Notes: generated by a model not told the origin, from the sequence alone. Shown: positions 4,040-60,564, numbered from the stretch's first letter. The stretch: 64,000 bases of DNA from Patescibacteria group bacterium (GCA_022703645.1 JAKLDG010000001.1:797254-861253); one strand, 5' to 3'. Program-made: numbers and translations.

Positions 4040-4147
4040 TTTTTGATTTTTGAATTTTTAATTTTATAAATAAATTTTAAATTCGAATTTTTAAAAATTA
4101 AGATTTTCCCCGTTTATTTAAAAATTAAAAAATTAAAAATTATAAAA

Positions 4148-5116
4148 TTGAATTCAGTCTTTCTCATTCACGGCGAAGATGACTATCTTGCCCGTGAAAA
4201 ATTAAATTTTTTTAAACAAGGTTTCATAAAAAAATATGGTGACCTAAATATTTCTGTTTATAATAATGAAAATATTGATCTCGATGGAATTATGAATGAT
4301 GTAGTTTCAGCACCATTTCTAAGTGAAAAGAAAATGATAATTCTCGAGGGGATATTAACGGAATTAAAAAAAGATGACCGCAAAAAATTTATTGAATTAA
4401 TCAAGAAAGTTCCGGACACATCTGTTTTTTTTATTTATGAAAATAGAAATCTGGGCGATAAAAAAACTAAGAATAAGGATATCGATGAAATCATCAAAAG
4501 CTTAAGAGCAAAAAATATTTTCGAATTTAAAAAAATATCAGAATTTGATATTGCGAAATATATCCAACAAAAAATAAGGTCCAGCGAATACAAAATGGAT
4601 TCACGCGCTATTAACACACTTGCAACTCTCGTCGGACCAAACACAAGACAGATTGATAATGAAATCAAAAAACTTTTTGCATATAAATTCCAAGAAAAAG
4701 AAATTACCGCTGACGATGTGCTCAATCTAGTTAAGGCAAATGTTAACAAGGGAGTATTTGACCTGACAGATGCATTAGCAAAAAAGGATTTGAAGGAATC
4801 ACAGAAAATTATTAAACATCTTGTCGAGACAGGAGAAAATCCGATTTCCATTCTTGGCATGATCACTTTTCATTTTAGGAATCTATTGCTGGTAAAATTA
4901 GCGCAAGCACAAAAGTTGAGAGAAGGCGATGTGATTAAAGAAACCGGTATGCACCCATTTGTTTATAAAAAAACTACTTCACAATCTCGGGGTTTTGATA
5001 TGAATAAAATCAAAGAAATTTATCACAAAATATGCCAGACGGATTTTGAAATGAAAACCGGAGAAAAGGAACCGGAATTAGCAATTGATCTACTGATTGC
5101 TAAAATTTGTATGTAA
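4148..5116 (+). CDS. holA: DNA polymerase III delta subunit
   Basis: The N-terminus LIHGEDDYL... is the HolA signature, ~320 aa. The start (TTG at 4148) is uncertain. Confidence 0.75.
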   Translation: MNSVFLIHGEDDYLAREKLNFFKQGFIKKYGDLNISVYNNENIDLDGIMNDVVSAPFLSEKKMIILEGILTELKKDDRKKFIELIKKVPDTSVFFIYENRNLGDKKTKNKDIDEIIKSLRAKNIFEFKKISEFDIAKYIQQKIRSSEYKMDSRAINTLATLVGPNTRQIDNEIKKLFAYKFQEKEITADDVLNLVKANVNKGVFDLTDALAKKDLKESQKIIKHLVETGENPISILGMITFHFRNLLLVKLAQAQKLREGDVIKETGMHPFVYKKTTSQSRGFDMNKIKEIYHKICQTDFEMKTGEKEPELAIDLLIAKICM

Positions 5117-7876: not shown

Positions 7877-8003
7877 AAAAGTTGATTAAAAAATTTACAA
7901 TCTTCAGTTTTCAATTTTCAATCAATGACGCAATGTCTCAATGTTTGAAAATTAAATCATTGAAAATTTATTGAAAATTGCAAAATTGAGAATTGAAAAT
8001 TTG

Positions 8004-9344
8004 CTATTTGATGTATTTCATGACTATTTCTTTATCATTGAAAGGTTGTATCTTGCCAGCAATATTCATACCGGTTTCGGAACCTTTTCCGGTTATTACT
8101 AGTACATCACCTTCTTTTTGTACCATTAGCAGCGCCTTCTCAATTGCTTGTTCACGGTTTAAAATTATCTCGTAATCCATTTTCTCGATCTTATCATTAT
8201 TTTTAAATCCTTGCTCGATGTCATGAACTATTTCATACGGATCTTCAAAATATGGGTCTTCATTTGTCAGTATTGAATAATCAGCATATCCAGAAACGAT
8301 CTGGCCCATTAACGGCCTTTTCTTTTTATCTCTTCCGCCTCCACAGGAACCAAATACAGCAATTATTTTGCCGGTATAAATCTCACGGATTATTTTATAT
8401 AACTCCTGAAGTGAGTCCGGAGTTAAGGCATAATCGATTATCACATCATAACCCTTACTGCTTTTTATTCTATCAAGCCTACCAGCAACTCCAGAAAAAC
8501 TTTCAAGCGATGCTTTTAGTTTTTCTGCGGATATTCCAAAAATCATCGCAACAGATGCGCCAGCAAGAAGATTATATGTATTAATGGCTCCTAAAATTTT
8601 TGATTCAATTTTTAACCTGTCTTCCCCATAATTCAGATTAAATCTAATCCCTTCTTTACTTTGGGTTGGTATATCAGCCTTGATAATATTCTGCGCAAAT
8701 AAAGAACTGTCTTTTTCTATACCGAAACCAATTTTTTGTTCTGCATCAAATCTTAAGAAATCTTCTGCGTGTTTGTCATCAATATTTGCGATAATCGTTT
8801 TGCGCAATTGATTCGCATCAAAACCGATAAGTTTTTTTCTCTTACTTTTTGCGAGTTTTGCAAAAATTCTCTGTTTCGCTTTTTTATAATTTTCAAAACT
8901 TCCGTGAGCTTCTATATGTTCGGGTGTAAGATTGGTAAAAACAAGAATATCAAAATCAATACCATAGGTTCTATGTGATGCGATTCCTTCGGAAGAAACT
9001 TCCACTACCGCAACCTTGCAGCCATCTTTCACCATGCGACGCAACATCTTTTGGAGAGATAGACGTCCTAGCATAGTGTTCTTTGATTTATTTACCCATT
9101 CTTTGTTTCCAATTTTAAAATTGGCAGTTGAAAGCATGCCAGTACGGATACCATTGCTTTGCAAAACATGGGCTATGACATTTACCGTGGTAGTTTTGCC
9201 ATTTGTACCAGTAACACCGATCACGAGTAGTTCTTTGGCGGGAAAACGAAATATCGTTGCAGCAAGAGCTGACCATAAAAAATAATAAAGAGAAAAAATA
9301 AACTTCGGAGTATATTTACGAACTAATTCTTTTAACTTCTTCAT
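8004..9344 (-). CDS. Mur ligase family protein (MurE/MurF-like), with an atypical hydrophobic N-terminus instead of the usual N-terminal domain
   Basis: P-loop VIGVTGTNGKTTT and NLTPEHIEAHGSFENYKKAK, typical of the Mur ligase central domain. Only ~40 residues precede the P-loop and they are hydrophobic. Confidence 0.55.
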   Translation of the reverse strand: MKKLKELVRKYTPKFIFSLYYFLWSALAATIFRFPAKELLVIGVTGTNGKTTTVNVIAHVLQSNGIRTGMLSTANFKIGNKEWVNKSKNTMLGRLSLQKMLRRMVKDGCKVAVVEVSSEGIASHRTYGIDFDILVFTNLTPEHIEAHGSFENYKKAKQRIFAKLAKSKRKKLIGFDANQLRKTIIANIDDKHAEDFLRFDAEQKIGFGIEKDSSLFAQNIIKADIPTQSKEGIRFNLNYGEDRLKIESKILGAINTYNLLAGASVAMIFGISAEKLKASLESFSGVAGRLDRIKSSKGYDVIIDYALTPDSLQELYKIIREIYTGKIIAVFGSCGGGRDKKKRPLMGQIVSGYADYSILTNEDPYFEDPYEIVHDIEQGFKNNDKIEKMDYEIILNREQAIEKALLMVQKEGDVLVITGKGSETGMNIAGKIQPFNDKEIVMKYIK

Positions 9345-9367: not shown

Positions 9368-10210
9368 TTACTTGATGATTTCCCTTATCCTCTCCTCGTG
9401 TTTTCTTTCCATATTGGTGGCAAAGTAACTACTGGATAGGTAAGATGCCAATACTATCCCGACAAAGACAACCAGATATCCTAATATATGTTTGAAAGTT
9501 ATTTCCGAAAAAGATACCGCAAAAACAAAACCAAAAATCAATTCAAAAATCAAAAACAACGCAAAAACCTTTTTATTTAATTTATGCCACAGTTTAAATG
9601 GCCAAATTTTTGCCAAAAATTTTACGAAGATAAATGAAAGAACTCCACCAACAACCATACTCCAAGCCATCCCCAATAAAAAATCAAAGGTAAATATCTT
9701 TGAAAGGAAAATGTCCGGGAAATTTGCATACCAGAAATCTTTGAATTGAGTAACTAATTGTGGTATGACAATTCTACCTCCCAAGTAACGAAAAATGCTT
9801 TCAATTAGAGTCAAAAATAGGAAGGATATAGCACCGTAGCGAATAGCATCGAAATACAGCGTTTTGTCATCTCTTTTTACTCCTAACGATGAAGATACAC
9901 TATCCCAAGCCCCGGAAATCTTTTCTTTATAACCTCCCTCTCCTATTTTATCACCAACACCTTCAACCATTCCTCGGACTTCTTTCATGATATTTCTTTT
10001 ATGAAGTGTTTTTTCTTCTTCCTCACCAAAAATATCATCACCTTTGATAATTTCGGCTATTTTTTCTCTTTTTTCCTGATCAATAAAATCAAGCGCTTCC
10101 TTGATATCACGATATTCAACACCTTGGTCCATGAGCCCTTTTCTTAATTGATCCATGTCAAATTGTGTGCGATACTTTTTTATGTAATCTACTAAGTCTT
10201 GATCTACCAT
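9368..10210 (-). CDS. Polytopic membrane protein, unknown function (co-oriented with the T4SS-like operon)
   Basis: Charged N-terminal half, then 4-5 hydrophobic helices. Confidence 0.4.
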   Translation of the reverse strand: MVDQDLVDYIKKYRTQFDMDQLRKGLMDQGVEYRDIKEALDFIDQEKREKIAEIIKGDDIFGEEEEKTLHKRNIMKEVRGMVEGVGDKIGEGGYKEKISGAWDSVSSSLGVKRDDKTLYFDAIRYGAISFLFLTLIESIFRYLGGRIVIPQLVTQFKDFWYANFPDIFLSKIFTFDFLLGMAWSMVVGGVLSFIFVKFLAKIWPFKLWHKLNKKVFALFLIFELIFGFVFAVSFSEITFKHILGYLVVFVGIVLASYLSSSYFATNMERKHEERIREIIK

Positions 10211-10377
10211 AGGTTTATTTATTTATAAAAACATATTCATAAATATTTAACGACTCATAATACTCATATTTTACCTCAAAATCAAAAAATAAGCAAAATA
10301 GATAGGATTTTTTAAGCCCCGCATAGATATGTGGGGCTAATCAATAAAAATAGCGATCATAATTCTGGAACTATTTT

Positions 10378-12441
10378 TTATGTCTTTTCCGTTTGTTCCA
10401 AAGTGGTTCCAGCTGCAGCAGCTTGTTCGATTTGCTGTTTTGGCGAGGTTGTGACAATTTGGTCTTCAGTATAGGAAGCAATGATTTTTATTGCGACATG
10501 GTTCAATCCCGCGAAGAAAAGGCCTTCGCCAACACCTGATTCAAGTAGCAGCGCTGCTTCAGCTTGAGTAAGATTAAAAGTTTTTGTTACAGCTTCAATG
10601 GAGGCTGGCGACTGACGCAAGAGCAATTGGAGCGATGAGTTGGTTATAATAGCTTTGCCATATTTATTTCCCAGAAAGTCCTCGACATCCTGCGCAATAG
10701 TGGTAAGACCGCAATAATATTTACGAGCTCTTTTGGCAATTGAGAAAATAAATCTGGCAGCATCCTCATGCTCCATCATTGTCCATGCTTCGTCAACTAT
10801 TAATAAGCGTTTCTTTTTCTCATGTTTGATCTTGGACCAAATAAAATCCAATACCATATACATGGCAATTGGTCGAAAAGAGGCTTCAAGATCCCGAATA
10901 TTGAACACCACGAAAGGATTATTCATATTAATATTAGTGGGCTGGTTGAAGAAATTGGAGAAAGTACCGGTAACATAACGGTCTAATCTTTTTACAATAG
11001 AATCAGCCTGAGGAATCTTCTTCAAAACCTCGTGAAAATCCGACATCAATGGCGGCGGATTTTTTTGGCTTTGTGGATCTTTGCTAATCCCCTTGCTTGT
11101 ATAAACATCAGCTAATGCTTTTTCTACAATCGCATCCTCTTCTGGGTTCATGGAGCCTAAAAGCAGGTTGAATAAACCCTTTAAAGTAATTAGGGCATTC
11201 CGGATATTGTCTTCTGCTTCAGCTTCGGTTGCATTATCGGGTAATTTTGTTAAATCAAAAGGATTAATACGGTCATCAGAAGAAAGACTCATGTTGAGAA
11301 ACGAACCTCCCACAACCTTACAAAGATTTTTATACTCGTTTTCTGGATCAATAATAATGATTTCTGCCCCGGTCATCATATAGCGCAAAGCTTCGAGTTT
11401 TACTGAATATGATTTCCCTCCGCCGGATTTTGCGAATACTACCGCATTGGCATTTTCGAGACTAAATCGGTCAAATATTATCAAACTATTATTATGACGA
11501 TTGATTCCATACATAATTCCTTCATTACTAGTCAGATCCATTGAAGCGAATGGGAAAGCAGTAGAAAGTGCGCCAGTATTCATATTTCTGGCAACATCCA
11601 AAAGATCACTTCCCAAAGGTATTGTTGAGCGGAAACCTTCACTCATCTGAAAACCAGCGCGTTTTGAGTAAATCAATGAACCGCCTAATTGGGATTCGAT
11701 ACGGCTTGACAACATATCCAACTCATCCAAAGTTTTAGAGTAGATAGTAATATAAATTGCAAATTGGAAAAGTTTCTCCTCGCCACGAGTCAATCTGTCA
11801 CGCAATTCTTCAATATCCTGGTAAGCTCCTTCCAATTCCGGATTACGAACCAATCCTTTTTCCGCCTCATTTTGAAGAGCCGCCTGTACTTGACCGGAAC
11901 GTTTGCGCAGTGTATCCAAAACTCCTTTTGTATCACGCGGATAAATAAACATCCCAATATCCATCGTCTGATCAATATTGATTAAAGGAGAGAGCCAGTT
12001 TGGGAAAATATATCTTGGATAATTAAAAATAAATAACGTTCGAATAAAAAGATCGTTGATAACTATATAGTTGGGAGTAATCTGCACAGAAGATGGAGCT
12101 ATCAGGTCGCGGATTGAAGCAAGACCTTTTTCATAGGTTCTTCGAGCTTCTTCTTCACGTTTCGCCGCTTCTTTTTTCAACCTTTCCTCTTCTTTTTGTT
12201 TTCCAATATCTATTGACATAGTTCTTGAACCAAAAAGAGAAAAACCTTTTTTTTGTGGAGCAGCTGCTACTGGGGATGGCTCAGTTTGAACCTGAGCAGG
12301 CGCGCCCACTGAAGTTGTATTTATTTGAACAGGCTGCATCGGCTGAGCCGTGGCAGTTGGATTTGCCATACCAGTATTGACCGGCGGATTATTTGTCGCC
12401 GGTGCCAATATTGAATCAATTATTTTTTTTGCATCATCCAT
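10378..12441 (-). CDS. virB4: VirB4/TrbE/TraC-family type IV secretion ATPase
   Basis: Walker A AKSGGGKS, Walker B LLIVDEAW (the DEAW hallmark of VirB4), 687 aa. Confidence 0.8.
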   Translation of the reverse strand: MDDAKKIIDSILAPATNNPPVNTGMANPTATAQPMQPVQINTTSVGAPAQVQTEPSPVAAAPQKKGFSLFGSRTMSIDIGKQKEEERLKKEAAKREEEARRTYEKGLASIRDLIAPSSVQITPNYIVINDLFIRTLFIFNYPRYIFPNWLSPLINIDQTMDIGMFIYPRDTKGVLDTLRKRSGQVQAALQNEAEKGLVRNPELEGAYQDIEELRDRLTRGEEKLFQFAIYITIYSKTLDELDMLSSRIESQLGGSLIYSKRAGFQMSEGFRSTIPLGSDLLDVARNMNTGALSTAFPFASMDLTSNEGIMYGINRHNNSLIIFDRFSLENANAVVFAKSGGGKSYSVKLEALRYMMTGAEIIIIDPENEYKNLCKVVGGSFLNMSLSSDDRINPFDLTKLPDNATEAEAEDNIRNALITLKGLFNLLLGSMNPEEDAIVEKALADVYTSKGISKDPQSQKNPPPLMSDFHEVLKKIPQADSIVKRLDRYVTGTFSNFFNQPTNINMNNPFVVFNIRDLEASFRPIAMYMVLDFIWSKIKHEKKKRLLIVDEAWTMMEHEDAARFIFSIAKRARKYYCGLTTIAQDVEDFLGNKYGKAIITNSSLQLLLRQSPASIEAVTKTFNLTQAEAALLLESGVGEGLFFAGLNHVAIKIIASYTEDQIVTTSPKQQIEQAAAAGTTLEQTEKT

Positions 12442-12918
12442 AGAATAGAATTTAGTATTTAGAATCTAGAATAACGAATTAGGAATGGTTTCTTGATCCT
12501 CTTATTAAACTATTTAATAATTTGTGAACATCTATACTTTTACTATATAAATTTGTAAATACTTCTTGATTTAGATAACCAATGTCCTTTCCTGCTATTA
12601 TTTGGTTTTGGACTTCAGTTACGGAACCGCTAGCGATATAATAAAACTGAATTTTTTCTTTATATGAATATCTTGTGAATCCTTCAGCTATGTTTGAAGA
12701 TATTGAAACAGCTGCTCTTCGAATTTGGCTTGTTAAACCATACATCTCATCTTTTGGGAAATCCTTTGTGGCATTATAAATCATTAAAACTAATTTATGC
12801 GCTTCCTGCCAAGTTCTTAAATCTGTAAAATTTTTAATCTTCTCTTTTTCTATATCCATTCTAAATCCTTTATTCGTTATTCTAAATTCCAGATTCTGTA
12901 TTCTAAATTCTTCCCCAT
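12442..12918. mobile_element. Candidate miniature insertion cassette: four-helix-bundle gene bracketed by ~38-bp imperfect inverted repeats
   Basis: Left flank 12455-12479 ...atttagaatctagaataacgaat. Right flank 12872-12909 attcgttattctaaattccagattctgtattctaaattct. A 13-nt perfect inverted core tagaataacgaat/attcgttattcta lies immediately outside the stop and start codons. Confidence 0.4.
12479..12859 (-). CDS. Four-helix-bundle protein (TIGR02436 family, the 23S-rRNA intervening-sequence protein type)
   Basis: 126 aa with TWQEAHKLVLMIYNATKDFPKDEMYGLTSQIRRAAVSISSNIAEG...YIASGSVTEVQNQI, the family consensus. It sits as a single gene between T4SS operon genes. Confidence 0.75.
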   Translation of the reverse strand: MDIEKEKIKNFTDLRTWQEAHKLVLMIYNATKDFPKDEMYGLTSQIRRAAVSISSNIAEGFTRYSYKEKIQFYYIASGSVTEVQNQIIAGKDIGYLNQEVFTNLYSKSIDVHKLLNSLIRGSRNHS

Positions 12919-13638
12919 CTAGATATTCATTTCTTTCGGCATTTTTTCAATCACCTCTGTTTCAAATTGTGATGCGTCAACTAATTTTTGCGCCGTACTC
13001 TGATCGGGATTATAAACACCATAAAATAGTTCAATCAATTCCTGCGTATCAAGCTGAATTGCGCGCACCCCAACTCCTTGCAGACCCATTGCTACTGTTT
13101 CAGCTTTTTGAATCAGATATTTTTTTTCATCAGCAAAACTCCCAACTGCAATAGCTCCTTTTCCTGCAGAAGAACTCCTTCCGACCGCTCCTACTTTTTT
13201 GAAAGCATTCGGATAGTGCGGGATAACAACGTAGAATCTTTTTTGCATAATATTTGTCTGCTGTATTATATTTTGCACAAATATAATATAGTCGCGAATT
13301 TGAATTTTTAGTAATTCGTTACTAATTTTTTTGGAATTTTCTGCTAATCCATCCAGATATCCTTCAAGATCAAGTTTGCGCGATTGGACTACTATTTGAA
13401 TAGGAAAGTCGAGAGAATTCAAGAATGATTGGAAACCGTAAATAATTCCGTTTCTTTCCAGCTCTGATTTTAATTCAAAGTTAACAGCAGAAGTGGAAAG
13501 TACCATACGCATACTTCCATCCTTCATTACGAGAATGCCCTCCTCAAAATGATCTATATCAATATAATATTGAGTCGAACCGGGTTTTGCGGGAGCAGTT
13601 TCTACCTGTCCCTTTTGTTTTTGTTCTTGAACTGCCAT
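12919..13638 (-). CDS. Hypothetical protein (239 aa) within the T4SS-like operon
   Basis: Co-oriented and tightly spaced with the VirB4 and VirB3-like genes; no assignable motif. Confidence 0.4.
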   Translation of the reverse strand: MAVQEQKQKGQVETAPAKPGSTQYYIDIDHFEEGILVMKDGSMRMVLSTSAVNFELKSELERNGIIYGFQSFLNSLDFPIQIVVQSRKLDLEGYLDGLAENSKKISNELLKIQIRDYIIFVQNIIQQTNIMQKRFYVVIPHYPNAFKKVGAVGRSSSAGKGAIAVGSFADEKKYLIQKAETVAMGLQGVGVRAIQLDTQELIELFYGVYNPDQSTAQKLVDASQFETEVIEKMPKEMNI

Positions 13639-13705
13639 TTTGTTTTTGTTTGAAATTTTTTTTTATTATACAACACTTATCTTTTTACGCAATTGCAAAT
13701 TCTTA

Positions 13706-14257
13706 TTAATCCAAAGGTAACTCTGTTAGATTCGTATCCGCTTTCACATTTTCTCTCAATGCCGATTGCACTACCCCTGGAGAGGCAACTCTACCTTCTG
13801 TTTCGTTCGATTCCGCATTCCAACCTTTTGTATCCAATGTTAATGCCAATTCATTCAATCGCGATCTTACCACACCGCTTCGCGCAAGTTTTGCCATTTC
13901 TTTCTGTTTTTCCTTTTCCTCACTACTTGCCTTCACCATAGTTCCAAAGTCTTTGAGTTTTGAAGCTTTCTGCCATTTCATCGTTTTTGGATTTTTCACA
14001 AATCCAAGTAGAAATGCCAAAAAAGTAAGGAATGGTCTTTCGTTAATCTTCACAAAAACTATCGCAATAGTCAGAACGGCTACCGGGGCATCAACAATCA
14101 TAACAACCATTAAACCAAACATCGGCATTAGAATTGTGTAAAGAACATAAATCAGCAGAACTCCACCAACCAAAAAACCGAATTGCTTGAGCGTGAAAGG
14201 CCCAATAATTTTATCTTCGACATCCAGGTTTTGTGGAACTTTATATTGATCTGGCAT
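13706..14257 (-). CDS. VirB3/PrgI-like small membrane protein (T4SS)
   Basis: N-terminal DKIIGPFTLKQFGFLVGGVLLIYVLY plus a second TM helix, immediately upstream of the VirB4 region in operon order. The fold-level assignment is inferred. Confidence 0.4.
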   Translation of the reverse strand: MPDQYKVPQNLDVEDKIIGPFTLKQFGFLVGGVLLIYVLYTILMPMFGLMVVMIVDAPVAVLTIAIVFVKINERPFLTFLAFLLGFVKNPKTMKWQKASKLKDFGTMVKASSEEKEKQKEMAKLARSGVVRSRLNELALTLDTKGWNAESNETEGRVASPGVVQSALRENVKADTNLTELPLD

Positions 14258-14272
14258 AGATTTAGCCTCAAT

Positions 14273-17041
14273 TTATAGATTTGAACTTTTCTTTTTTAAT
14301 GCATATTTAAATTTTTTCCTATCTGACTCGCTACCACCCTGAGAATCGGGTCTGCGCCAATTTAGCACTTCCTTCATCTCATTTGCATATAATTTCATTC
14401 TTTCACCGCTCGCCTTAATTTCTTCTGGTTTCGTTTTATCTACCAAAGCTATATCGGGATAAAATTGTTTTCCAAGTTCAAACGCCTTCTCTGGAGAAGC
14501 CCCCTCTATTGAGTTGGCAAATGATTCTAAATATTCGTAATACTTTTCTTCATCACCACCATATGCCATCATTAATGAGGGGTCATTTATTTCTGCGCGC
14601 ATTCTTTGAACATTGCTATTCTTAATTGCGCCGGTCAGTTTTCTTTCTAATCCCATAATCTTCCCATGTGAAATTGCTTCATCTGTTATAGCGAGTTTTT
14701 GACGGAAATTTTTTGCATCTGTTTCATTATTACCAAAATAACTTTTTATATCCTCATTTTTTTCTATCTTGTTCAATAAATCTGTTAAATCATCGTCTTC
14801 TAATGCTCCTAAATTCCCAACCTCCTTCATTTTTGCTTTCATTTCATTCCTTTTCCCTTCTAAAACCTTGCTAACGGCGTTTTTATTTTCTTGACTAAAC
14901 TTGTTTAAATCTAACTCTTTAATAATGTCTGGGTTTTCGCTCAAGCTCATTATAGCCGCTTCGTCCTTGAAATAATTGTCTACCGTTGGTTTCTTCCCTG
15001 TGAGCTCCCTATAATTCTTAAAGTTACTCCATATAGGTAGTTTTCCTTCTGGATCGATTCCTTGACCACGTAGTTTTTCTAGTTCTTTAATTGCGGTCAT
15101 TTGCTCCTGATCGCTCATAACACCTATCCCCTTTGCTTTATCTTGCAATACTTTTAATGATGCTGCGTGTTCGATCTTAGTTAATTTTGGATCAAGTATA
15201 GCATTACTTAAGGCGCGAGGTTGATAATTCCCTCTATTCTTTGCTTCAGCGAACATTTTATCGTTAAATGCTGGGCCAGTAAGGTTGTTTTGTTTATATT
15301 TGTCCCAATCCATTTCGGCAGCCTTTGCACGGGCAGCTCGCGGCTCTTCATATCTTTTCGGAATTTCCTTTGCTCCTAACACGGCTCTTGCATAACCAGA
15401 ACCAATTTTTTGACGCATTGTTTTGTTGTCTTCATCTGTTCTTTTTGCCGCTTCTTTTAATCTTGTCTCGGATCCTCTTTTTACCTGACTTCCCGCCCAT
15501 TTTTGAACATCTCCCATACCCTTCACCTTCCCACCGGTCGCTGCGCTGATTCCTTTATCCACTACGGTAGCTGCCTCTTTTGACATCTTCATTGTCATAG
15601 TAATACCAATATAAATTACAATAATTGCTAATATTAATTGTGTAAGATTGTAGTTTCCTTTTTCAATACCATTTGGGTCGATACCGAGATCGATAGTCGG
15701 CACAACATCGCCGGTAATGCTAATCGCCTTTGCACTAATATATAGAAACAATGCCACGAGAGGGCCCATAAAAACCCATTGCACGAAATATCCCGTCCAT
15801 TTTCCCACGAGATCAGTAACTTGTTTGAAAGGAATAACATTTGCTATATACGGCGTAGCAGAAAAAATGAAGAGAAGTTGTACTATTATTTTCCTCACCC
15901 ACAAAATCATCCAAGTATATAACAAGACTATAGTAAATGCCCAGATCGCGATAACCTTTACTACCACTGCAGCTAAAGCGACGCCGTCAAGTACCATAAA
16001 TGCGGAAAAACCGCCATTAAATATTGGGTCTATGCCCTCAGCAATACCACCAGATCCGGAACTTTGTAAAAATAGACCGACAAGGTAATTCGAAGCGTCA
16101 ACAAAAAGATTACAAATAGACAAGCTGAAATTAACCAACACTACTGCACCAATCATTGCCGGTATCATTTTCTTTACCTGCCAGCTTTCAAGTTTTTGAC
16201 CCAAGACCGATCCTAAGCCCAAAGTATTTAACACATTCAGTAGAGCCATTATCATAAAAGCCAACATAAATAGAACATTTATAATATTGCGAATTATCGT
16301 CCACATCTCAATCACAAAATTACCGGCTGCAATATTAGTTGGCAGGGTTAAAGAATTTGACATTCTATCAGTAGTTAGGAAATTATTAACAAGTAAGCGC
16401 GGTGGGAATAAGAAAATATCAAAAAATTTACAAAACATATTCTTTGGCAATTGTTTAAAGTCTTTCATCAAACCCATAAAATCCATTCCAGAAACATCAT
16501 CAGGACATTTGGAAGCATCGCCGGAACTACTTGACGAACCGCCTTTGACTGCCGCAGTTTTAGCTGCTGCCTGGACTTCGGCCTTGGTTAAGTTTGATTT
16601 TTTAACATCTTGCGCTGCTATTACTGCAGTATTAACAGCCCTAAGGTTTTCTTCTGTTACACCAGTAATTCCATTATTCTCATAGTACTCAAGAGTTCCA
16701 GGATTATCATTAACCGATATCGGCGGTACCGACTCCTCGCTGCTTTTTATTATCTCATCAACAACATTTTGTGCTTCGTCCGTAGTTAAATTTGCTTTTT
16801 TAACATCTTGCGCAGCTATTATTGCAGTGTTTACTGCGGTAAGATTATCGTCAGTTACATCATTGATGCCATAGCCTGAATAATATTCCAGTGTTCCTGG
16901 GTCATTGAGAGAAATCGGCGCTAGCTCCGCGGCACTTGCTTTTAAAGGGATGATCAGGGATATAAAAAAAGACAATACAAAAAGTACTGTCAGTATCAAA
17001 AACACCCTTTTATTTTTTCCTCCTTTTTTTTGAAAATTCAT
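14273..17041 (-). CDS. VirB6/TrbL-like polytopic T4SS membrane protein with signal peptide, duplicated N-terminal ~55-aa surface repeat and a long charged C-terminal domain
   Basis: Preferred start MNFQKKGGKNKRVFLILTVLFVLSFF (rc of 17039-17041); the track's longer ORF uses TTG. Tandem repeat ISLNDPGTLEYYSGYGINDVTDDNLTAVNTAIIAAQDVKKANLT / ISVNDNPGTLEYYENNGITGVTEENLRAVNTAVIAAQDVKKSNLT, then >=6 TM helices, then a ~450-aa hydrophilic tail. Confidence 0.5.
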   Translation of the reverse strand: MNFQKKGGKNKRVFLILTVLFVLSFFISLIIPLKASAAELAPISLNDPGTLEYYSGYGINDVTDDNLTAVNTAIIAAQDVKKANLTTDEAQNVVDEIIKSSEESVPPISVNDNPGTLEYYENNGITGVTEENLRAVNTAVIAAQDVKKSNLTKAEVQAAAKTAAVKGGSSSSSGDASKCPDDVSGMDFMGLMKDFKQLPKNMFCKFFDIFLFPPRLLVNNFLTTDRMSNSLTLPTNIAAGNFVIEMWTIIRNIINVLFMLAFMIMALLNVLNTLGLGSVLGQKLESWQVKKMIPAMIGAVVLVNFSLSICNLFVDASNYLVGLFLQSSGSGGIAEGIDPIFNGGFSAFMVLDGVALAAVVVKVIAIWAFTIVLLYTWMILWVRKIIVQLLFIFSATPYIANVIPFKQVTDLVGKWTGYFVQWVFMGPLVALFLYISAKAISITGDVVPTIDLGIDPNGIEKGNYNLTQLILAIIVIYIGITMTMKMSKEAATVVDKGISAATGGKVKGMGDVQKWAGSQVKRGSETRLKEAAKRTDEDNKTMRQKIGSGYARAVLGAKEIPKRYEEPRAARAKAAEMDWDKYKQNNLTGPAFNDKMFAEAKNRGNYQPRALSNAILDPKLTKIEHAASLKVLQDKAKGIGVMSDQEQMTAIKELEKLRGQGIDPEGKLPIWSNFKNYRELTGKKPTVDNYFKDEAAIMSLSENPDIIKELDLNKFSQENKNAVSKVLEGKRNEMKAKMKEVGNLGALEDDDLTDLLNKIEKNEDIKSYFGNNETDAKNFRQKLAITDEAISHGKIMGLERKLTGAIKNSNVQRMRAEINDPSLMMAYGGDEEKYYEYLESFANSIEGASPEKAFELGKQFYPDIALVDKTKPEEIKASGERMKLYANEMKEVLNWRRPDSQGGSESDRKKFKYALKKKSSNL

Positions 17042-17272
17042 TGTGTGTTTGTTTTTTATACACAAATATAGCAAAAATAAGGTTACATTCTTGTCCCTTT
17101 TGCCTTTCAATATTTATTATACTTACTGTGCAATAAAAGACAAGAGACCATTTGATATGAAAATCCCAAATCCTAAATCACAAATCCCAAACAAATCCAA
17201 ATTTTCAAAATTCAAAAGGGAACCCCGATTAATTTCAGAGTTCCCTCATTTGATTTATTGTTTAATTGTTTA

Positions 17273-18076
17273 TTATTTTTTCATTGCTTTGTTCCATAGA
17301 ACAACTTGATTTCTGCCATTTTCTTTTGCGAAGTAAAGCGCTTCATCAGCCTTGGCTATAACTTTTGGTATCAGCATATCAGTAACTCTGACGTTTGCTA
17401 TATCGCGTCCCTCTACAGAGTGAACACCGATACTTGCTGTTACGCGCACTTCTTTTCCAGTTCTTTTATTAATCGTGAACTTATTATTTTCAATTGCTTT
17501 AATGATTCTTTTTGCTGCTTCAACGCCTAATTCTTTTGGGGTATCAGGAAGCAATATCACGAATTCCTCGCCACCAAATCTGAATACTGAATCTGTTTCG
17601 CGGACTTGATTTTTTAGCGTACCGGCAACACCGCGCAAAACCATATCTCCTGCCAAGTGACCATATCTATCATTAACATGTTTGAAGTGATCAATGTCTA
17701 CCATCATAATAGTTAATGTAATCGGTTCAGAAAGTAATTGTTCGATTTGCAAATGTTTCGCTCGCAACCGTGCCAATTCTTTGGAAATATTATCAATAAA
17801 TGCTCTACGGTTATATACTTGAGTCAGTTCATCCATTGTAGCCAACATCTCATGTTTCTTGGCTTTTTCCTCAGCATTGAGCGCTAATACACCAAGCCAA
17901 AACATCGTGTCTTTTTCTTTCAGTTTACCTTGCTGAAAAAGTACAAGGATGTCTTCTGGACGCAGCGTTGAAAGATCTGACATTTTTTTCATCTTGGTAA
18001 GATTTCCGATACTGTCAGCAAGATCTTTAATTCTTTTATTCTCGTTAAGCGCAAATTGTAATGTGTTGGTTGTCAT
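17273..18076 (-). CDS. GGDEF-domain diguanylate cyclase (coiled-coil N-terminus, no obvious sensor domain)
   Basis: RRAF...MMVDIDHFKHVNDRYGHLAGD...FRFGGEEFVILLP: the GGEEF active-site motif and surrounding conserved blocks. Confidence 0.85.
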   Translation of the reverse strand: MTTNTLQFALNENKRIKDLADSIGNLTKMKKMSDLSTLRPEDILVLFQQGKLKEKDTMFWLGVLALNAEEKAKKHEMLATMDELTQVYNRRAFIDNISKELARLRAKHLQIEQLLSEPITLTIMMVDIDHFKHVNDRYGHLAGDMVLRGVAGTLKNQVRETDSVFRFGGEEFVILLPDTPKELGVEAAKRIIKAIENNKFTINKRTGKEVRVTASIGVHSVEGRDIANVRVTDMLIPKVIAKADEALYFAKENGRNQVVLWNKAMKK

Positions 18077-19979: not shown

Positions 19980-21362
19980 ATGAATGATAATGCAAAAAGC
20001 GGCCTGTTCTGTTGTTTACTGCCGGCAATTTTATACATTGCTATTATAGTAATGCTGTTGGCTTTTTTATTATCAATACTTTCCCGCTCCGGCGGGCCTT
20101 GTTCTGGTGTAAAAAGTTTTCTCTTCAATGTCGTTTTGACGGGTAATTCACAAGAAGCGAAAGATGCTCTCTGCGGAGCATCAAAAGAAGCTTTTGGCGC
20201 GCCACCGGATGCAGCCGCTGGTGCATATATTTATGATGGTGGAAACACATCAAGCTGCAGTAGCACAGGATTAATTAATACATCTCGCTACATTAATGAC
20301 CCAAATCTTCCAGGCTGGATAAAAGACGCGTCTGATAAATATTTTGGGGGCGACCAAGCATTATTAATTTCTATTATTCAGGTAGAGTCGGGCTGGAAAC
20401 CAAATGCATATAACCCTTCTTCCGCTACAGGACTGGGACAATTTTTGACAAGCACTGCACAAAACAGAAAATGGGTTGAATTCCATGGTGGTACTGACCC
20501 ACAAGGCAAGACTTGGCCATTCGGAACTATTTATACCGACAAACCACCACCTTCTAATGACGCAAGGTTTGATCCTGAAAGATCTTTATATGCTGGCGCA
20601 AGGTATTTCTCTGAAACAATGGGATACCCAGACCTACAAGGTTTTAAAGATTGTAAAGGTGCTACGGGAATTCAATTAGCTTATTGCGCATATATTTATC
20701 ATTATAATGGAGGATGTTATTTAAAACCCGGATCATCGACATATTCTGCCACCCAAAAAGACCTCTGCACAGCCGCAGTGAAGGCTGGTAATGAAATGAA
20801 AACTAATTATGCAAATCTTACTAGTAAAGGTCAGTGTGTTGCAATCGCAGGAGCACTTGCTGATGGCCCTATCGGACCACTTGTTTCCGGAAAATGCAGT
20901 GAAAGAATAATGTCCGAAGCTCAAAAATATATTGGGATACCATATAGCCAAGGCAAACCTACTGGTTCACCAAATGGACATTGCGGAACAAATTCGAATG
21001 GTCGCGAAGGGGTGGGCTCTTTGGGAATTGATTGCTCTGGTTTTGTAAGTAGAGTATATAGGGATTCAGGAATATTCCCAGAAAACAAAAGAGGGTTGTG
21101 GTGTAATACTACAGCAACATTGCCAGGTAACTCACTTTTACGTAGATTATCCGGTCCCAAGGAGCTAAAAACTGGTGATCTAATTGTTTCTCCTGGACAC
21201 GTTGTAATATTTATTTCAACAAACACTGATGGTTCAGCAAGGATCATTGAATCAGGTGGTAGTGACCCTGGAGGTGGAAGTGTAAGAATTACAACTAGAA
21301 GTAAGGTTAAGGCCTTTGATATCAAAAGAAATGTATATCTCCGAGCGCAGGCCTGTGAATAA
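19980..21362 (+). CDS. Bifunctional cell-wall hydrolase: lytic transglycosylase (SLT) domain plus C-terminal NlpC/P60 peptidase domain, N-terminal TM (VirB1/PrgK-like)
   Basis: SLT motif LISIIQVESGWKPNAYNPSSATGLGQF. NlpC/P60 catalytic Cys context IDCSGFVSRVY with downstream GDLIVSPGHVVIFI. Confidence 0.65.
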   Translation: MNDNAKSGLFCCLLPAILYIAIIVMLLAFLLSILSRSGGPCSGVKSFLFNVVLTGNSQEAKDALCGASKEAFGAPPDAAAGAYIYDGGNTSSCSSTGLINTSRYINDPNLPGWIKDASDKYFGGDQALLISIIQVESGWKPNAYNPSSATGLGQFLTSTAQNRKWVEFHGGTDPQGKTWPFGTIYTDKPPPSNDARFDPERSLYAGARYFSETMGYPDLQGFKDCKGATGIQLAYCAYIYHYNGGCYLKPGSSTYSATQKDLCTAAVKAGNEMKTNYANLTSKGQCVAIAGALADGPIGPLVSGKCSERIMSEAQKYIGIPYSQGKPTGSPNGHCGTNSNGREGVGSLGIDCSGFVSRVYRDSGIFPENKRGLWCNTTATLPGNSLLRRLSGPKELKTGDLIVSPGHVVIFISTNTDGSARIIESGGSDPGGGSVRITTRSKVKAFDIKRNVYLRAQACE

Positions 21363-22858: not shown

Positions 22859-22886
22859 TTCACTTTCTCCTTTTTGGATTTTTTTC

Positions 22887-23513: not shown

Positions 23514-23609
23514 TTCCTTCCCCCTTTTTTTTAATTTATTTTTTAAAACTGCTGCTTTTTTAATAACCTTTTCCACAAAAAAATAAATAAGTAAAAAGCT
23601 ATCGAACCA

Positions 23610-39043: not shown

Positions 39044-39409
39044 TTATTGGGTCAAAAAATCCGTTCCTTCTCCTGCGCCAGTAATTCCCAACTTAGACAT
39101 TACGAATGACTTTAGAGCGAAAGCTAAGGCAATAATTACTACACCAATAATCGCATAAGCAATAGTCTTATTCGCTGTCGCTACCTTTTCCGGATTACCA
39201 GCAGAGGTAACATAATTAAAGCCACCCATAATTACATAAATAACTGCGACAAAGCCTGCGGCGCCCAACAGCACATTAAGAGCGGTGTTTACAAAATTCG
39301 CTAAGCCCCCCTCCTCAACAAATCCTTCAACTGCTAAGGCTTTATTGCTTGCAAAAAGTATTGCAGACGCAGAGATGCTTGTGCTAATTAATTTAATTCG
39401 TTTTGACAT
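39044..39409 (-). CDS. T4SS pilin-like small protein (VirB2/TrbC-like; signal peptide plus two hydrophobic helices)
   Basis: Signal peptide ...ASNKALA, then GGFNYVTSAGNPEKVATANKTIAYAIIGVVIIALAFAL. It shares the motif [ST]xGNP[DE]K with the next gene. Confidence 0.5.
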   Translation of the reverse strand: MSKRIKLISTSISASAILFASNKALAVEGFVEEGGLANFVNTALNVLLGAAGFVAVIYVIMGGFNYVTSAGNPEKVATANKTIAYAIIGVVIIALAFALKSFVMSKLGITGAGEGTDFLTQ

Positions 39410-39582
39410 AAAATCTCCTTATTATCCCCAATAAATAATGGGGCTAAATTATTATTTTTATTTGTTATATTTTTTGATTTCTTGTTTTCTTTTCTCATGG
39501 TTTTCGACCTTTGGTTTTATTTTATTATAAATTGCTTTTTTTGCAATATCTTTATAAAACACCATTCGTATATTCGTTAGGT

Positions 39583-40218
39583 TCAAGGGCTTGTTGTGGT
39601 TGAGCCAGGGGTATTTATTTGAAGTTGTTCTACTGCGCTGGGGTTGCTTGCTGGATTGATATTAGCATTATTATAACCGATAAAATTGATAATAAACTGT
39701 GATAAAGCGTAAAACAGTATCAGGACTACCAGCCCAAGCAAGGCATAAGTAATCATGGCGGTGGCTTTTTTAATTTTATCCGGATTGCCTGTGGAAAAAA
39801 GATAATTGATTCCACCCCAAGCGATCAGTAGCGCAACCAGCACAAATCCAAATTCAAGTCCCAGTGATAATATATCTCCCATAGTCTTACCAGCAAAAGT
39901 AAAAATTGCTGCTGAACTGGTTTGCCCCGAGGCTTTTTCTTGAACTCCACTCAGTAGTCCAAAAAAAACTCTTGCTCCTACCACCACTATTAATGAGGTA
40001 ATGCCTGCTTCTACATATTTACGCGCTTTTTTAATTTTATCTGGATTGCCACTGCTGCTAATATACATCAAGGTAGCAACCATAAATGATATAAGACAGG
40101 CAAGCAAAGTCAGCCAATAAGTAACAGAATAAAGCGAGCCAAGAAAATTTGTACTGAAATTAATATCGGTCAGGCTTGTTCCAGAGACGATACTATTAAA
40201 ATCAAGATTAGTAGCCAT
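39583..40218 (-). CDS. Tandemly duplicated T4SS pilin-like protein (two pilin modules in one ORF)
   Basis: Two copies of the module: ...YISSSGNPDKIKKARKYVEAGITSLIVVVGA... and ...LFSTGNPDKIKKATAMITYALLGLVVLILFYAL. Confidence 0.5.
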   Translation of the reverse strand: MATNLDFNSIVSGTSLTDINFSTNFLGSLYSVTYWLTLLACLISFMVATLMYISSSGNPDKIKKARKYVEAGITSLIVVVGARVFFGLLSGVQEKASGQTSSAAIFTFAGKTMGDILSLGLEFGFVLVALLIAWGGINYLFSTGNPDKIKKATAMITYALLGLVVLILFYALSQFIINFIGYNNANINPASNPSAVEQLQINTPGSTTTSP

Positions 40219-60165: not shown

Positions 60166-60169
60166 ATCA

Positions 60170-60553: not shown

Positions 60554-60564
60554 GTTGCTCCTTC

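What the first reader, a model, noticed from the sequence alone, without database searches (positions are those of the whole stretch)
9368..17041. T4SS-like operon (VirB6-like, VirB3-like, unknown, VirB4) in a small AT-rich genome, plus remote pilin and hydrolase genes
The minus-strand operon encodes a 923-aa VirB6/TrbL-like polytopic protein, a VirB3/PrgI-like protein, an unknown 239-aa protein, a VirB4 ATPase (DEAW Walker B) and a membrane protein. Elsewhere in the window are two T4SS-pilin-like genes (39044-40218), a lytic-transglycosylase/NlpC-P60 hydrolase (19980-21362) and comFC (46745). No relaxase, VirD4 coupling protein or VirB11 is present in 64 kb. The set therefore looks like the reduced T4SS-like machinery reported in CPR/Patescibacteria and proposed to serve DNA uptake or host interaction rather than conjugation (established knowledge, applied by inference).
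Basis: partly seen in the sequence, partly recalled or inferred. Interest (0 to 1): 0.6.

Follow-up and report, generated by a model that had tools for sequence, protein, structure and literature searches.

The report
Patescibacterial T4SS operon with inserted IVS-like cassette
This is an ordinary, already described chromosomal type IV secretion gene cluster of an ultrasmall candidate-phyla-radiation (CPR, Patescibacteria) bacterium; its one unusual detail is a small rRNA-intervening-sequence-like gene cassette inserted between the two halves of its split VirB4 ATPase.

Summary
The minus strand encodes a VirB6-like protein, PrgI/VirB3, a 239-aa protein, VirB4 and a 280-aa membrane protein. Two corrections apply. 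The "unknown" 239-aa protein is a TrsD homologue, that is, the separately encoded N-terminal part of VirB4.

The two pilin genes, the SLT+NlpC/P60 hydrolase and comFC are confirmed. Pfam scans of all 58 non-overlapping ORFs of 82 aa or more found no relaxase, coupling protein or VirB11. The locus is about 17 kb from dnaA and is syntenic with housekeeping genes in relatives, so it is not an ICE.

This is the Patescibacteria T4SS already described by Wang 2023 and Quinonero-Coronel 2025. Those papers report it as widespread, relaxase-less, pilin-bearing and essential for epibiotic growth in one cultured species.

The 126-aa gene lies in a 466-nt cassette flanked by inverted heptamer-repeat arrays, the same anatomy as the Coxiella 23S rRNA intervening sequence. 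Such cassettes are enriched in T4SS operons in my sample of CPR loci (14 of 16, binomial p about 1e-6). I found no report of this.

The parts
17116..17143 (-). Promoter-like site (TTGTCT, 16-nt spacer, TATAAT) upstream of the virB6-like gene. It is preceded by a terminator-like hairpin at 17216-17247 that closes the GGDEF gene.
   Evidence: This is a consensus match only. It argues for the ATG at 17041 rather than the TTG at 17110 as the start codon.
14273..17041 (-). Extended VirB6-like polytopic membrane protein (922 aa). It has an N-terminal TM segment, an exposed region of about 200 aa containing a tandem repeat of about 66 aa, a 5-6 TM core, and a hydrophilic C-terminal tail of about 430 aa.
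   Evidence: The protein itself has no Pfam or NCBIfam hit. Five of 20 syntenic CPR homologues hit PF04610 TrbL/VirB6, best E 2.8e-6. An AF2 model of the core has pLDDT 80 and pTM 0.75. The seven best Foldseek PDB hits are all TrwI/VirB6 of the R388 T4SS: probability 0.99-1.00, E 4.7e-3, TM 0.53.
13706..14257 (-). PrgI / VirB3-like protein (183 aa) with a two-TM hairpin at residues 21-72.
   Evidence: PF12666, E 1.5e-10, above the gathering score. TM segments. Homologues are found upstream of trsD in 72 of 79 sources.
12919..13638 (-). TrsD homologue: the separately encoded N-terminal part of VirB4 (239 aa, soluble).
   Evidence: NF045975 VirB4_plasma positions 110-233/894, E 1.6e-8. NF041427 TrsD, E 1.7e-4. 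CD1110 VirB4 positions 10-86/752. Of 23 homologues, 23 hit TrsD and 22 hit the VirB4 N-terminal part. The gene sits directly upstream of virB4 in 78 of 79 sources. It is fused in frame to virB4 in L054 and L064.
12446..12911 (-). IVS-like cassette. The 5' arm (12865-12911) and 3' arm (12446-12486) are inverted arrays of 7-nt units (AGAATTT / ATTCTAA). They enclose the 126-aa four-helix-bundle ORF of the S23p / 23S_rRNA_IVP family at 12479-12859.
   Evidence: PF05635 6.8e-39 and TIGR02436 1.3e-35. The arms are 41 nt and 78% complementary. The MFE fold pairs the two flanks around the ORF. Period-7 arrays were found by TRF. The cassette is absent from L001, L002, L003 and L081 at this site.
10378..12441 (-). 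VirB4 ATPase lacking the N-terminal domain (687 aa). Homology to VirB4 profiles starts after a P/Q/A-rich N-terminal region of about 98 aa.
   Evidence: NF045971 conju_CD1110, E 4.4e-112, profile positions 177-733/752, above the cut-off. PF19044, E 2.4e-29. PDB 4ag5, E 5.5e-53. Walker A and B motifs are in the translation.
9368..10210 (-). Clade-specific membrane protein (280 aa): a small N-terminal helical domain followed by a predicted four-helix membrane domain. Membership of the T4SS is unproven.
   Evidence: Only 17 representatives among 1.84 billion clusters. Found downstream of virB4 only in the window, L001-L003 and L081. The model is all-alpha, pLDDT 76. No PDB fold match, so it is not VirB8-like.
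19980..21362 (+). Candidate VirB1-type cell-wall hydrolase (460 aa) with an N-terminal TM segment, an SLT lytic transglycosylase domain and an NlpC/P60 peptidase domain.
   Evidence: PF01464, E 1.2e-12; PF00877, E 4.7e-5. The two-domain architecture is the one PMC12102498 describes for monoderm VirB1 proteins. Its link to this T4SS is inferred from proximity (about 3 kb) only.
39044..39409 (-). VirB2-like T4SS pilin (121 aa, two TM segments).
   Evidence: PF18895, E 1.8e-9. NF045849 Mbov_0395 pilin-like, E 2.6e-12, above the cut-off.
39583..40218 (-). VirB2-like pilin, apparently a duplicated module (211 aa, four TM segments, two Pfam stretches).
   Evidence: PF18895, E 3.2e-10, two stretches. 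NF045849, E 3.5e-9. TM segments.

Best explanation
The region is the core operon of the chromosomal, vertically inherited Patescibacteria-type T4SS, which derives from the monoderm MPF-FATA conjugation machinery.

Proposed working model; every step in it is inferred, not shown:
- The extended VirB6-like protein and PrgI/VirB3 form the membrane platform.
- TrsD, which is the detached N-terminal domain of VirB4, together with the 687-aa VirB4 ATPase forms the motor docked on that platform.
- The SLT/NlpC-P60 hydrolase opens the cell wall locally.
- The two VirB2-like pilins, encoded about 22 kb away on the other side of dnaA, are assembled into a pilus or conduit.

There is no relaxase or coupling protein in the window, and the cluster is embedded in conserved housekeeping synteny. 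The machine most likely serves contact-dependent exchange with a host cell (protein export or uptake of host material) rather than conjugation. This extrapolates from the essentiality of the homologous genes for epibiotic growth of Southlakia epibionticum.

In this lineage, a 466-nt cassette with the anatomy of a 23S rRNA intervening sequence has been inserted into the short trsD-virB4 spacer. It carries a four-helix-bundle ORF in the loop of a stem built from inverted heptamer arrays. I infer that it is co-transcribed and that its stem is an RNase III substrate that would cut the operon transcript between trsD and virB4.
For: Component identities.

CPR distribution and gene order: the best relatives are overwhelmingly CPR-labelled MAGs; TrsD in 78 of 79 sources, PrgI in 72, VirB6-like in 47, pilins in 35.

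trsD and virB4 are separate but tightly coupled in most loci. They are separate ORFs in 73 of 76 loci; the gap is between -4 and +30 nt in about 50 of these. They are fused in L054 and L064.

Chromosomal, non-mobile context:
- GGDEF-virB6-prgI-trsD-virB4-M280-murE-like-polA synteny at 57-75% amino-acid identity in L001 and L003; L002 shares it from prgI onward.
- dnaA and dnaN at 32.2-35.1 kb.
- GC of the block from GGDEF to the murE-like gene (8-18 kb) is 0.35-0.38, against 0.30-0.41 across the window.
- No relaxase, T4CP or VirB11 in 58 ORFs.

Literature:
- PMC12102498 reports VirB4 in 2,417 of 3,035 CPR genomes, a monophyletic clade within MPF-FATA, TrsD as the most abundant component, pilin arrays, rare relaxases and proximity to dnaA.
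- PMC10633639 reports the T4SS cluster and its pilins as essential in Tn-seq, with no coupling protein or relaxase.
- PMC12857230 summarises that the comEC deletion is viable.

Cassette: anatomy; absent in close relatives, leaving a spacer of about 11 nt without it; PMC4990558 for the matching Coxiella IVS anatomy and its RNase III excision.
Against: - No function was tested here. The substrate of any CPR T4SS is unknown.
- Absence of a coupling protein or relaxase is shown only for 64 kb of a contig of about 867 kb. PMC12102498 finds VirD4-like genes far from virB4 in many CPR genomes.
- No VirB8-like component was found.
- The pilin genes and the hydrolase are not in the operon, so their link to it is by inference.
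- I did not build a VirB4 phylogeny, so clade membership rests on nearest neighbours and profile hits.
- For the cassette, the whole-region fold is only modestly better than shuffles (z -1.65). RNase III cleavage is purely inferred. No rnc gene lies in the window.
Confidence: 0.85

Rival explanations
1. The cluster is part of an integrative conjugative element or degraded conjugative plasmid whose relaxase and coupling protein lie outside the operon. It would move DNA by conjugation.
For: The VirB4 best matches conjugation-family profiles (CD1110, Mycoplasma ICE Mbov_0397). The pilins match a Mycoplasma ICE pilin-like family. Two serine recombinases lie at 54.8-57.1 kb.
Against: - No relaxase or T4CP in 64 kb.
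- The cluster keeps the same housekeeping neighbours (GGDEF, murE-like, polA) in relatives as distant as 57-75% amino-acid identity.
- GC is not deviant.
- The recombinases are 37 kb away, beside a separate low-GC segment.
- In the literature only 15 relaxase genes lay close to virB4, among 2,474 VirB4 homologues (PMC12102498).
Confidence: 0.04
2. The machine imports DNA or nucleotides, in the manner of the archaeal Ced system or Helicobacter ComB. It would work with comFC and other competence genes to feed a cell that cannot make nucleotides.
For: Weak VirB4 hits to CedB and CedD profiles (E 2.9e-11 and 6.6e-4). comFC is in the window. PMC12102498 notes that T4SS and comF/recG/radA are co-located in class ABY1. 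A 2026 preprint proposes host RNA acquisition and mentions possible T4SS pili at the interface.
Against: - The CedB score is 42.7 bits against a cut-off of 700, so this is not a Ced orthologue.
- comFC is 30 kb away.
- In Southlakia a comEC deletion abolishes transformation but is viable, whereas the T4SS is essential (PMC12857230). The essential role is therefore not ComEC-dependent DNA uptake.
Confidence: 0.12
3. The 126-aa four-helix-bundle protein is a genuine accessory subunit or regulator of the CPR T4SS, not a selfish IVS-like passenger.
For: - 14 of the 16 four-helix-bundle ORFs found in the 80 related loci lie inside or abutting the PrgI-TrsD-VirB4 block, p between 2.6e-7 and 1.9e-6.
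- Counting the window's own copy as well, all 17 are co-oriented with virB4.
- The ORF is intact across the full Pfam profile.
Against: - It is present in only 14 of the 81 operons examined (13 of 80 related loci plus the window), and at four different positions.
- It is absent from the closest relatives at this site.
- It is bracketed by inverted heptamer arrays whose sequence differs from cassette to cassette.
- The family is known from rRNA intervening sequences, including in CPR.
- ORF-less versions of the hairpin occupy the same spacer in L081 and L001.
Confidence: 0.15

Closest known systems
Patescibacteria-clade T4SS (Southlakia epibionticum ML1 SEML1_0006-0019; survey of Quinonero-Coronel et al. 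2025, PMC12102498)
   Same: VirB4 with an adjacent TrsD homologue, PrgI/VirB3, VirB6, VirB2-like pilins and a two-domain cell-wall hydrolase. No relaxase or coupling protein nearby. Chromosomal, close to dnaA.
   Different: - The pilins are only two and lie about 22 kb from virB4 rather than in a cluster-embedded array.
- A clade-restricted 280-aa membrane protein follows virB4.
- An IVS-like four-helix-bundle cassette separates trsD from virB4. That paper's text and its held supplement do not mention this feature.
MPF-FATA conjugative T4SS of monoderms (pGO1/pSK41 TrsC-TrsD-TrsE; C. difficile CTn2 CD1110; pCF10 PrgH-PrgI-PrgJ)
   Same: The best profile matches are CD1110 VirB4, TrsD and PrgI. 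A split TrsD + VirB4-like ATPase arrangement occurs in the pGO1 subclass. The hydrolase has the SLT + peptidase architecture.
   Different: No relaxase, T4CP, VirB8-like (PrgL) protein or adhesin was found. VirB2-like pilins are present, which Gram-positive systems lack. The context is chromosomal housekeeping genes, not a plasmid or ICE.
R388 TrwI / VirB6 (PDB 7o3v, 8rt9, 8rtd)
   Same: The modelled TM core of the 922-aa protein has TrwI as its only confident structural neighbour.
   Different: About 12-14% sequence identity and TM-score about 0.5. The CPR protein has large extra N-terminal exposed and C-terminal hydrophilic regions (an 'extended VirB6').
23S rRNA intervening sequence carrying an S23p ORF (Coxiella burnetii, Leptospira; PMC4990558)
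   Same: Size (428-444 nt against 466 nt). Terminal inverted repeats form a long stem. Tandem heptameric repeats lie just upstream of the start codon. The ORF belongs to the same PF05635 four-helix-bundle family.
   Different: It is located in an intergenic spacer of a protein-coding operon, not in helix 25 or 45 of 23S rRNA. The heptamer unit sequence is different. Excision by RNase III is untested here.
Mycoplasma ICE transfer genes (Mbov_0395 pilin-like, Mbov_0397 VirB4)
   Same: NCBIfam hits for both pilins (above the cut-off for the 121-aa one), for VirB4 and for TrsD (N-terminal part of the Mbov_0397 profile).
   Different: The VirB4 score (313 bits) is below that family's cut-off (590). 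There is no ICE backbone here.

Membership tests
Patescibacteria-type T4SS | VirB4 ATPase whose nearest relatives are patescibacterial | tested here: met
   The 80 best loci in species-representative genomes are overwhelmingly CPR-labelled MAGs at 44-73% identity. NF045971 scores above its cut-off. No phylogeny was built, so clade placement rests on nearest neighbours only.
Patescibacteria-type T4SS | TrsD homologue (VirB4 N-terminal-domain-like) encoded next to virB4 | tested here: met
   Adjacent in 78 of 79 sources. In the window the two genes are separated by the inserted cassette.
Patescibacteria-type T4SS | VirB3/PrgI and VirB6 membrane components near virB4 | tested here: met
   PrgI matches PF12666 above the cut-off. 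VirB6 is supported by transitive Pfam hits and by the fold match to TrwI. Direct sequence-profile evidence for the window protein itself is absent.
Patescibacteria-type T4SS | VirB2-like pilin genes | tested here: met
   Two PF18895 genes at 39044-40218. They are distant from virB4 (about 22 kb).
Patescibacteria-type T4SS | No associated relaxase or coupling protein; chromosomal, often near dnaA | tested here: met
   None among the 58 window ORFs. dnaA lies at 33689-35137. The rest of the genome could not be searched.
Patescibacteria-type T4SS | Required for epibiotic growth; builds a pilus at the host interface | not testable with these tools
   Known only for S. epibionticum (PMC10633639) and suggested by microscopy in a 2026 preprint.
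Conjugative T4SS / ICE | Relaxase (MOB) plus oriT | tested here: not met
   No relaxase domain in any window ORF of 82 aa or more. oriT was not searched for.
Conjugative T4SS / ICE | VirD4/TcpA-type coupling protein | tested here: not met
   The only TraG/VirB4-type P-loop protein in the window is VirB4.
Conjugative T4SS / ICE | Integrase and att boundaries around the cluster; patchy presence among relatives | tested here: not met
   Flanks are conserved in L001-L003. The nearest recombinases are 37 kb away.
23S rRNA IVS elements with S23p ORF | PF05635/TIGR02436 four-helix-bundle ORF | tested here: met
   E 6.8e-39 and 1.3e-35.
23S rRNA IVS elements with S23p ORF | Terminal inverted repeats forming a stem that encloses the ORF, with tandem heptamers before the start codon | tested here: met
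   The same architecture is seen at most of the 17 cassettes. In at least 13 of them, by inspection of the consensus units, the downstream unit is the reverse complement of the upstream unit. Reference anatomy is from PMC4990558.
23S rRNA IVS elements with S23p ORF | Located within 23S (or 16S) rRNA | tested here: not met
   It lies between two protein-coding genes. No rRNA or any Rfam family is in the window.
23S rRNA IVS elements with S23p ORF | Excised from the transcript by RNase III | not testable with these tools
Diversity-generating retroelement (Avd accessory protein) | Reverse transcriptase and a TR/VR repeat pair nearby | tested here: not met
   The Avd profile hit is only E 2.2e-3. 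No RT domain is in the window. No TR/VR-like direct repeat lies near the ORF.
Ced / ComB DNA-import systems | CedB/CedA or ComB orthologues | tested here: not met
   CedB scores 42.7 bits against a cut-off of 700.

The most novel reading that the evidence does not exclude
S23p-type intervening-sequence cassettes are not confined to rRNA. These are four-helix-bundle ORFs enclosed by inverted heptamer arrays. In CPR bacteria they preferentially colonise the spacers of the T4SS operon around prgI, trsD and virB4.

There they would act as RNase III processing modules that cut the polycistronic transcript and uncouple expression of neighbouring T4SS genes. Alternatively, the encoded pentameric protein has been recruited by the T4SS. 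ORF-less heptamer palindromes in the same and other spacers would be their miniature derivatives.
Probability: 0.3. Interest if true: 0.55.

Novelty: new member of a known kind. Interest (0 to 1): 0.3.

Why it matters
The T4SS itself adds one more example to a system already catalogued in about 2,400 CPR genomes, so its main value is correct annotation. trsD should be named, VirB6 is now supported by fold, and the 280-aa gene stays unassigned.

The cassette is the part that could matter. It shows the S23p/IVS element family operating in mRNA operons with the same stem-and-heptamer anatomy as in rRNA. In my sample it is concentrated in an operon that is essential in the one CPR species tested. 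If RNase III cuts there, this would be a simple, testable case of a selfish or domesticated RNA-processing element shaping expression of a secretion machine in organisms that are otherwise hard to study.

Tried and rejected
1. DGR reading of the four-helix-bundle gene. Rejected: there is no RT, no TR/VR pair, and only a weak Avd score.
2. The 280-aa protein as a VirB8 analogue. Rejected: the model is all-alpha, has no PDB fold match, and only 17 representative clusters were found in the 1.84-billion-cluster library.
3. The bitopic 227-aa and 229-aa proteins at 22175-23576 as VirB8-like. PDB sequence searches gave nothing, and the two are not paralogues.
4. PDB sequence and profile searches with TrsD found nothing. 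The homology to the VirB4 N-terminus therefore rests on NCBIfam profiles and on the fused ORFs.
5. A word-indexed homologue search with the full-length VirB6-like protein returned only itself and hits to its N-terminal repeat in SLH-domain surface proteins. A profile of the TM core was needed instead.
6. Precomputed PF19590 labels on those homologues were not reproduced by my own Pfam scan of two of them at E <= 0.01. I do not use them.
8. Rfam and tRNA scans of the window were empty.
9. RNA duplex z-scores of the cassette flanks were noisy because the ORF starts were uncertain. The inverted-repeat and TRF analyses were more informative.
10. Promoter and terminator counts in the operon are no higher than in shuffled sequence. 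Only the one site before virB6 is used, and cautiously.

Full report
**1. Observation**

The window has 36-38% GC around the locus. Its long ORFs read in the standard bacterial code.

From 18076 down to 5117, all genes are on the minus strand. In transcription order they are:

| Gene | Coordinates | Size |
|---|---|---|
| GGDEF protein | 17273-18076 | 267 aa |
| Polytopic (VirB6-like) protein | 14273-17041 | 922 aa |
| PrgI | 13706-14257 | 183 aa |
| 239-aa ORF | 12919-13638 | 239 aa |
| 126-aa ORF | 12479-12859 | 126 aa |
| VirB4 | 10378-12441 | 687 aa |
| Membrane protein | 9368-10210 | 280 aa |
| Mur ligase (murE-like) | 8004-9344 | 446 aa |
| PolA | 5117-7876 | 919 aa |

A terminator-like hairpin (17216-17247) follows the GGDEF gene. 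A promoter-like site (17116-17143) precedes the ATG at 17041.

**2. Identity of the components**

*VirB4.* It matches the CD1110 VirB4 family above NCBI's cut-off (E 4.4e-112). The alignment covers only profile positions 177-733 of 752. It also matches PF19044 and the solved VirB4 C-terminal domain 4ag5 (E 5.5e-53). The Walker A motif (GGGKS) and Walker B motif (LLIVDEAW) are present.

*The 239-aa protein.* It matches the missing N-terminal parts of the same profiles:
- Mbov_0397 VirB4, positions 110-233 of 894, E 1.6e-8.
- CD1110, positions 10-86.
- The TrsD/TraD family, E 1.7e-4.

Among 23 homologues taken from related loci, all 23 hit TrsD and 22 hit the VirB4 N-terminal part. The 'unknown' protein is therefore TrsD, the detached N-terminal domain of VirB4.

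*PrgI.* It is above the Pfam threshold and has the expected two-TM hairpin.

*The 922-aa protein.* It has no family hit of its own. Three lines of evidence support VirB6:
- Five of 20 syntenic homologues hit TrbL/VirB6.
- An AlphaFold model of the TM core, built on 29 sequences, has pLDDT 80 and pTM 0.75.
- The seven best Foldseek hits in the PDB are all chains of TrwI/VirB6 from the R388 T4SS, with probability 0.99-1.00. Nothing else is significant.

Its layout is that of an 'extended VirB6': an N-terminal TM segment, an exposed repeat region, a 5-6 TM core and a hydrophilic tail of about 430 aa.

*The 280-aa protein.* It is all-alpha with a membrane domain. It has only 17 relatives among 1.84 billion representative proteins and no fold match. 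I cannot assign it to the T4SS. It is not VirB8-like.

*Genes outside the operon.* The two pilin genes, the SLT+NlpC/P60 hydrolase and comFC are confirmed.

**3. Context and relatives**

Scanning all 58 non-overlapping ORFs of 82 aa or more found no relaxase, coupling protein or VirB11. It did find dnaA, dnaN, rnpA, yidC and yidD at 32-37 kb. The T4SS operon is therefore about 17 kb from the replication-origin region.

The exact proteins are on record as hypothetical proteins of a 'Patescibacteria group bacterium' MAG, with a longest contig of 867 kb.

A search of one genome per species returned 191 confirmed relatives of VirB4. Of the best 80, most are labelled as CPR lineages. A few carry implausible labels.

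Mapping the window's proteins onto these loci by tblastn and by iterated HMMs gave the following counts out of 79 sources:

| Component | Sources with it |
|---|---|
| TrsD, directly upstream of virB4 | 78 |
| PrgI, upstream of trsD | 72 |
| VirB6-like gene | 47 |
| Pilins within 10 kb | 35 |

The closest relatives, L001 and L003, keep the whole order GGDEF-virB6-prgI-trsD-virB4-M280-mur-polA at 57-75% identity for the flanking housekeeping proteins. L002 keeps it from prgI onward. This is vertical, chromosomal inheritance, not an ICE.

trsD and virB4 are separate ORFs in 73 of 76 loci. The gap is between -4 and +30 nt in about 50 of these. They are fused in frame in L054 and L064. The fusions independently support the view that the two genes encode two parts of one VirB4.

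**4. What is already known**

PMC12102498 describes this system:
- VirB4 is present in 2,417 of 3,035 Patescibacteria genomes.
- It forms its own clade inside MPF-FATA.
- TrsD is the most abundant accompanying component, and that paper notes its remote homology to the VirB4 N-terminus.
- PrgI/VirB3, VirB6 and VirB2-like pilin arrays accompany it. VirB1 is variable.
- Relaxases are rare, and the cluster is often close to dnaA.

PMC10633639 shows that the T4SS cluster and its pilins are essential for epibiotic growth of Southlakia epibionticum. It found no recognisable coupling or relaxase proteins in that cluster.

PMC12857230 summarises that a comEC deletion abolishes competence but not viability. 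The essential role is therefore not ComEC-dependent DNA uptake.

**5. Mechanism**

The components and their conservation are shown. The following steps are inferred:
- VirB6-like protein plus PrgI form the membrane platform.
- TrsD plus VirB4 form the ATPase motor.
- The hydrolase breaches the wall locally.
- The VirB2-like pilins form a pilus or conduit towards a host cell, for protein export or uptake of host material.

Conjugation is unlikely. ComEC-independent nucleic-acid import cannot be excluded.

**6. The overlooked gene**

The 126-aa ORF is a full-length member of PF05635/TIGR02436, the four-helix-bundle '23S rRNA intervening sequence protein' family.

*Anatomy.* It is bracketed by 41-nt imperfect inverted repeats at 12446-12486 and 12865-12905. 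These repeats are arrays of 7-nt units: AGAATTT upstream and its complement downstream. The minimum-free-energy fold pairs the two flanks into a long stem enclosing the ORF.

Without the 466-nt cassette, the trsD-virB4 spacer would be about 11 nt, which is similar to the spacer in most related loci.

*Presence and absence.*
- The cassette is absent at this site from L001, L002, L003 and the closer relative L081.
- L081 and L001 carry an ORF-less hairpin of about 60 nt, made of similar heptamers, in the same spacer.
- An identical cassette in the same context occurs on contigs from several metagenomes.

*Comparison with a known element.* This is the anatomy reported for the Coxiella 23S rRNA IVS. 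[quoted passage not shown] Here the element lies in an mRNA operon.

*Distribution in the related loci.* An HMM search that converged after iteration found 17 such ORFs in 1.41 Mb of CPR DNA. Their properties are:
- All 17 are co-oriented with virB4.
- Fourteen of the 16 outside the window lie just upstream of prgI (5), between prgI and trsD (8), or just after virB4 (1).
- That block is about 25-29% of the sequence searched, giving a binomial p between 2.6e-7 and 1.9e-6.
- Most have flanking period-7 arrays.
- By inspection of the consensus units, in at least 13 cassettes the downstream unit is the reverse complement of the upstream unit, while the unit sequence differs between cassettes. I read this as selection for the stem rather than for the sequence.

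*Interpretation.* I read the cassette as a sporadic, mobile-looking IVS-type element with a preference for this operon. Its likely effect is RNase III cleavage of the transcript. The alternative, that the protein is a T4SS accessory factor, is less likely given its patchy and positionally variable occurrence.

PMC12102498 does not mention it in the text or in the supplement held here.

**7. Verdict**

The novelty of the T4SS itself is low, because this is a new member of a known kind.

The IVS-like cassette and its enrichment in CPR T4SS operons are the only potentially new elements. They deserve a proper census and a simple RNase III test.

Noticed in passing
window 12446-12911 (-); also L078 7052-7432 and 8625-9062, L057 7698-8120, L066 1648-2070, L042 8881-9246, L024 7078-7449 and 8557-8931, L054 8752-9210, L028 7732-8109, L001 7918-8292, L004 5805-6212, L047 620-988, L050 8855-9229, L023 8393-8758: Four-helix-bundle (PF05635) ORFs are enclosed by inverted arrays of heptamer repeats, the anatomy of a 23S rRNA IVS. 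They are inserted in spacers of CPR T4SS operons, always co-oriented with virB4. They are enriched there: 14 of 16 copies lie in about 25-29% of the sequence searched.
   Followed up: yes
window 7877-8003 (murE-like/polA spacer), window 4030-4155 (femAB/holA spacer), L081 826-959, L001 9824-9938: ORF-less palindromes built from heptamer arrays (for example AATTTTC x4.4 facing ATTGAAA x4.4) fold into hairpins of 60-110 nt, with z about -3. They sit in short spacers of co-directional genes. They look like miniature relatives of the ORF-bearing cassette and may be a genome-wide element family.
   Followed up: partly
window 1473-1503 (inside tsaD) and 5196-5230 (3' end of polA): A perfect (ATTGGAA)x4.4 heptamer array lies inside the tsaD coding sequence, where it encodes ...ISNFQFPISN... 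within an insertion of about 50 aa relative to the Pfam profile. Its 93% complement lies inside polA, 3.7 kb away.
   Followed up: no
L054 9086-11707; L064 5285-7717 (possibly L049): trsD and virB4 are fused in one reading frame in a few CPR genomes. In 73 of 76 loci they are separate ORFs, mostly with overlapping or tightly spaced ends.
   Followed up: partly
window 13068-13071 (G4 run in trsD); L082, L083, L084: Three short contigs from independent metagenomes are identical to the window over 1.9 kb except for one missing G in this run. The deletion frameshifts trsD into 200-aa and 49-aa ORFs. This could be a strain variant, phase variation or an assembly error.
   Followed up: partly
window 51271-51429 / 54411-54569 and 54567-54714 / 56181-56328: Two pairs of 148-159-nt inverted repeats (99% and 100% complementary) are present. 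One pair brackets about 3 kb carrying GNAT, LPD3 and unknown genes. The other brackets most of a large serine recombinase gene (54783-56330), and a small resolvase follows at 56551-57120. This looks like an invertible-segment system or a mobile element.
   Followed up: no
window 58000-64000: A low-GC segment (0.30-0.32, against about 0.37 elsewhere) holds small ORFs, mostly without Pfam hits, plus MazG-like and HAD-like genes. It lies next to the recombinases and may be foreign DNA.
   Followed up: no
window 23787-31916 (+): A giant 2,709-aa ORF with no Pfam hit at E <= 0.1. A homologue lies in the same neighbourhood (next to the PEGA-domain gene) in L003. It may be a surface protein.
   Followed up: no
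window 16576-16674 and 16774-16872 (N-terminal exposed region of the VirB6-like protein): A tandem protein repeat of about 66 aa (DNA copies 80% identical). Its only database matches are to SLH or Big_2 domain surface proteins and to a Clostridium botulinum protein, at about 40% identity over the repeat.
   Followed up: no
window 17273-18076 (-); L001 1368-2141; L003 4242-5024: A GGDEF diguanylate cyclase gene sits immediately upstream of the T4SS operon in this clade. This hints at c-di-GMP signalling next to the secretion genes.
   Followed up: no
L011, L016, L018-L021, L024, L028, L029, L032 and others: Many MAGs whose T4SS loci are typical of CPR are titled 'uncultured Gammaproteobacteria', 'Clostridia' or 'Nevskiaceae' in their records. 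These are probably taxonomic mislabels of the bins.
   Followed up: no
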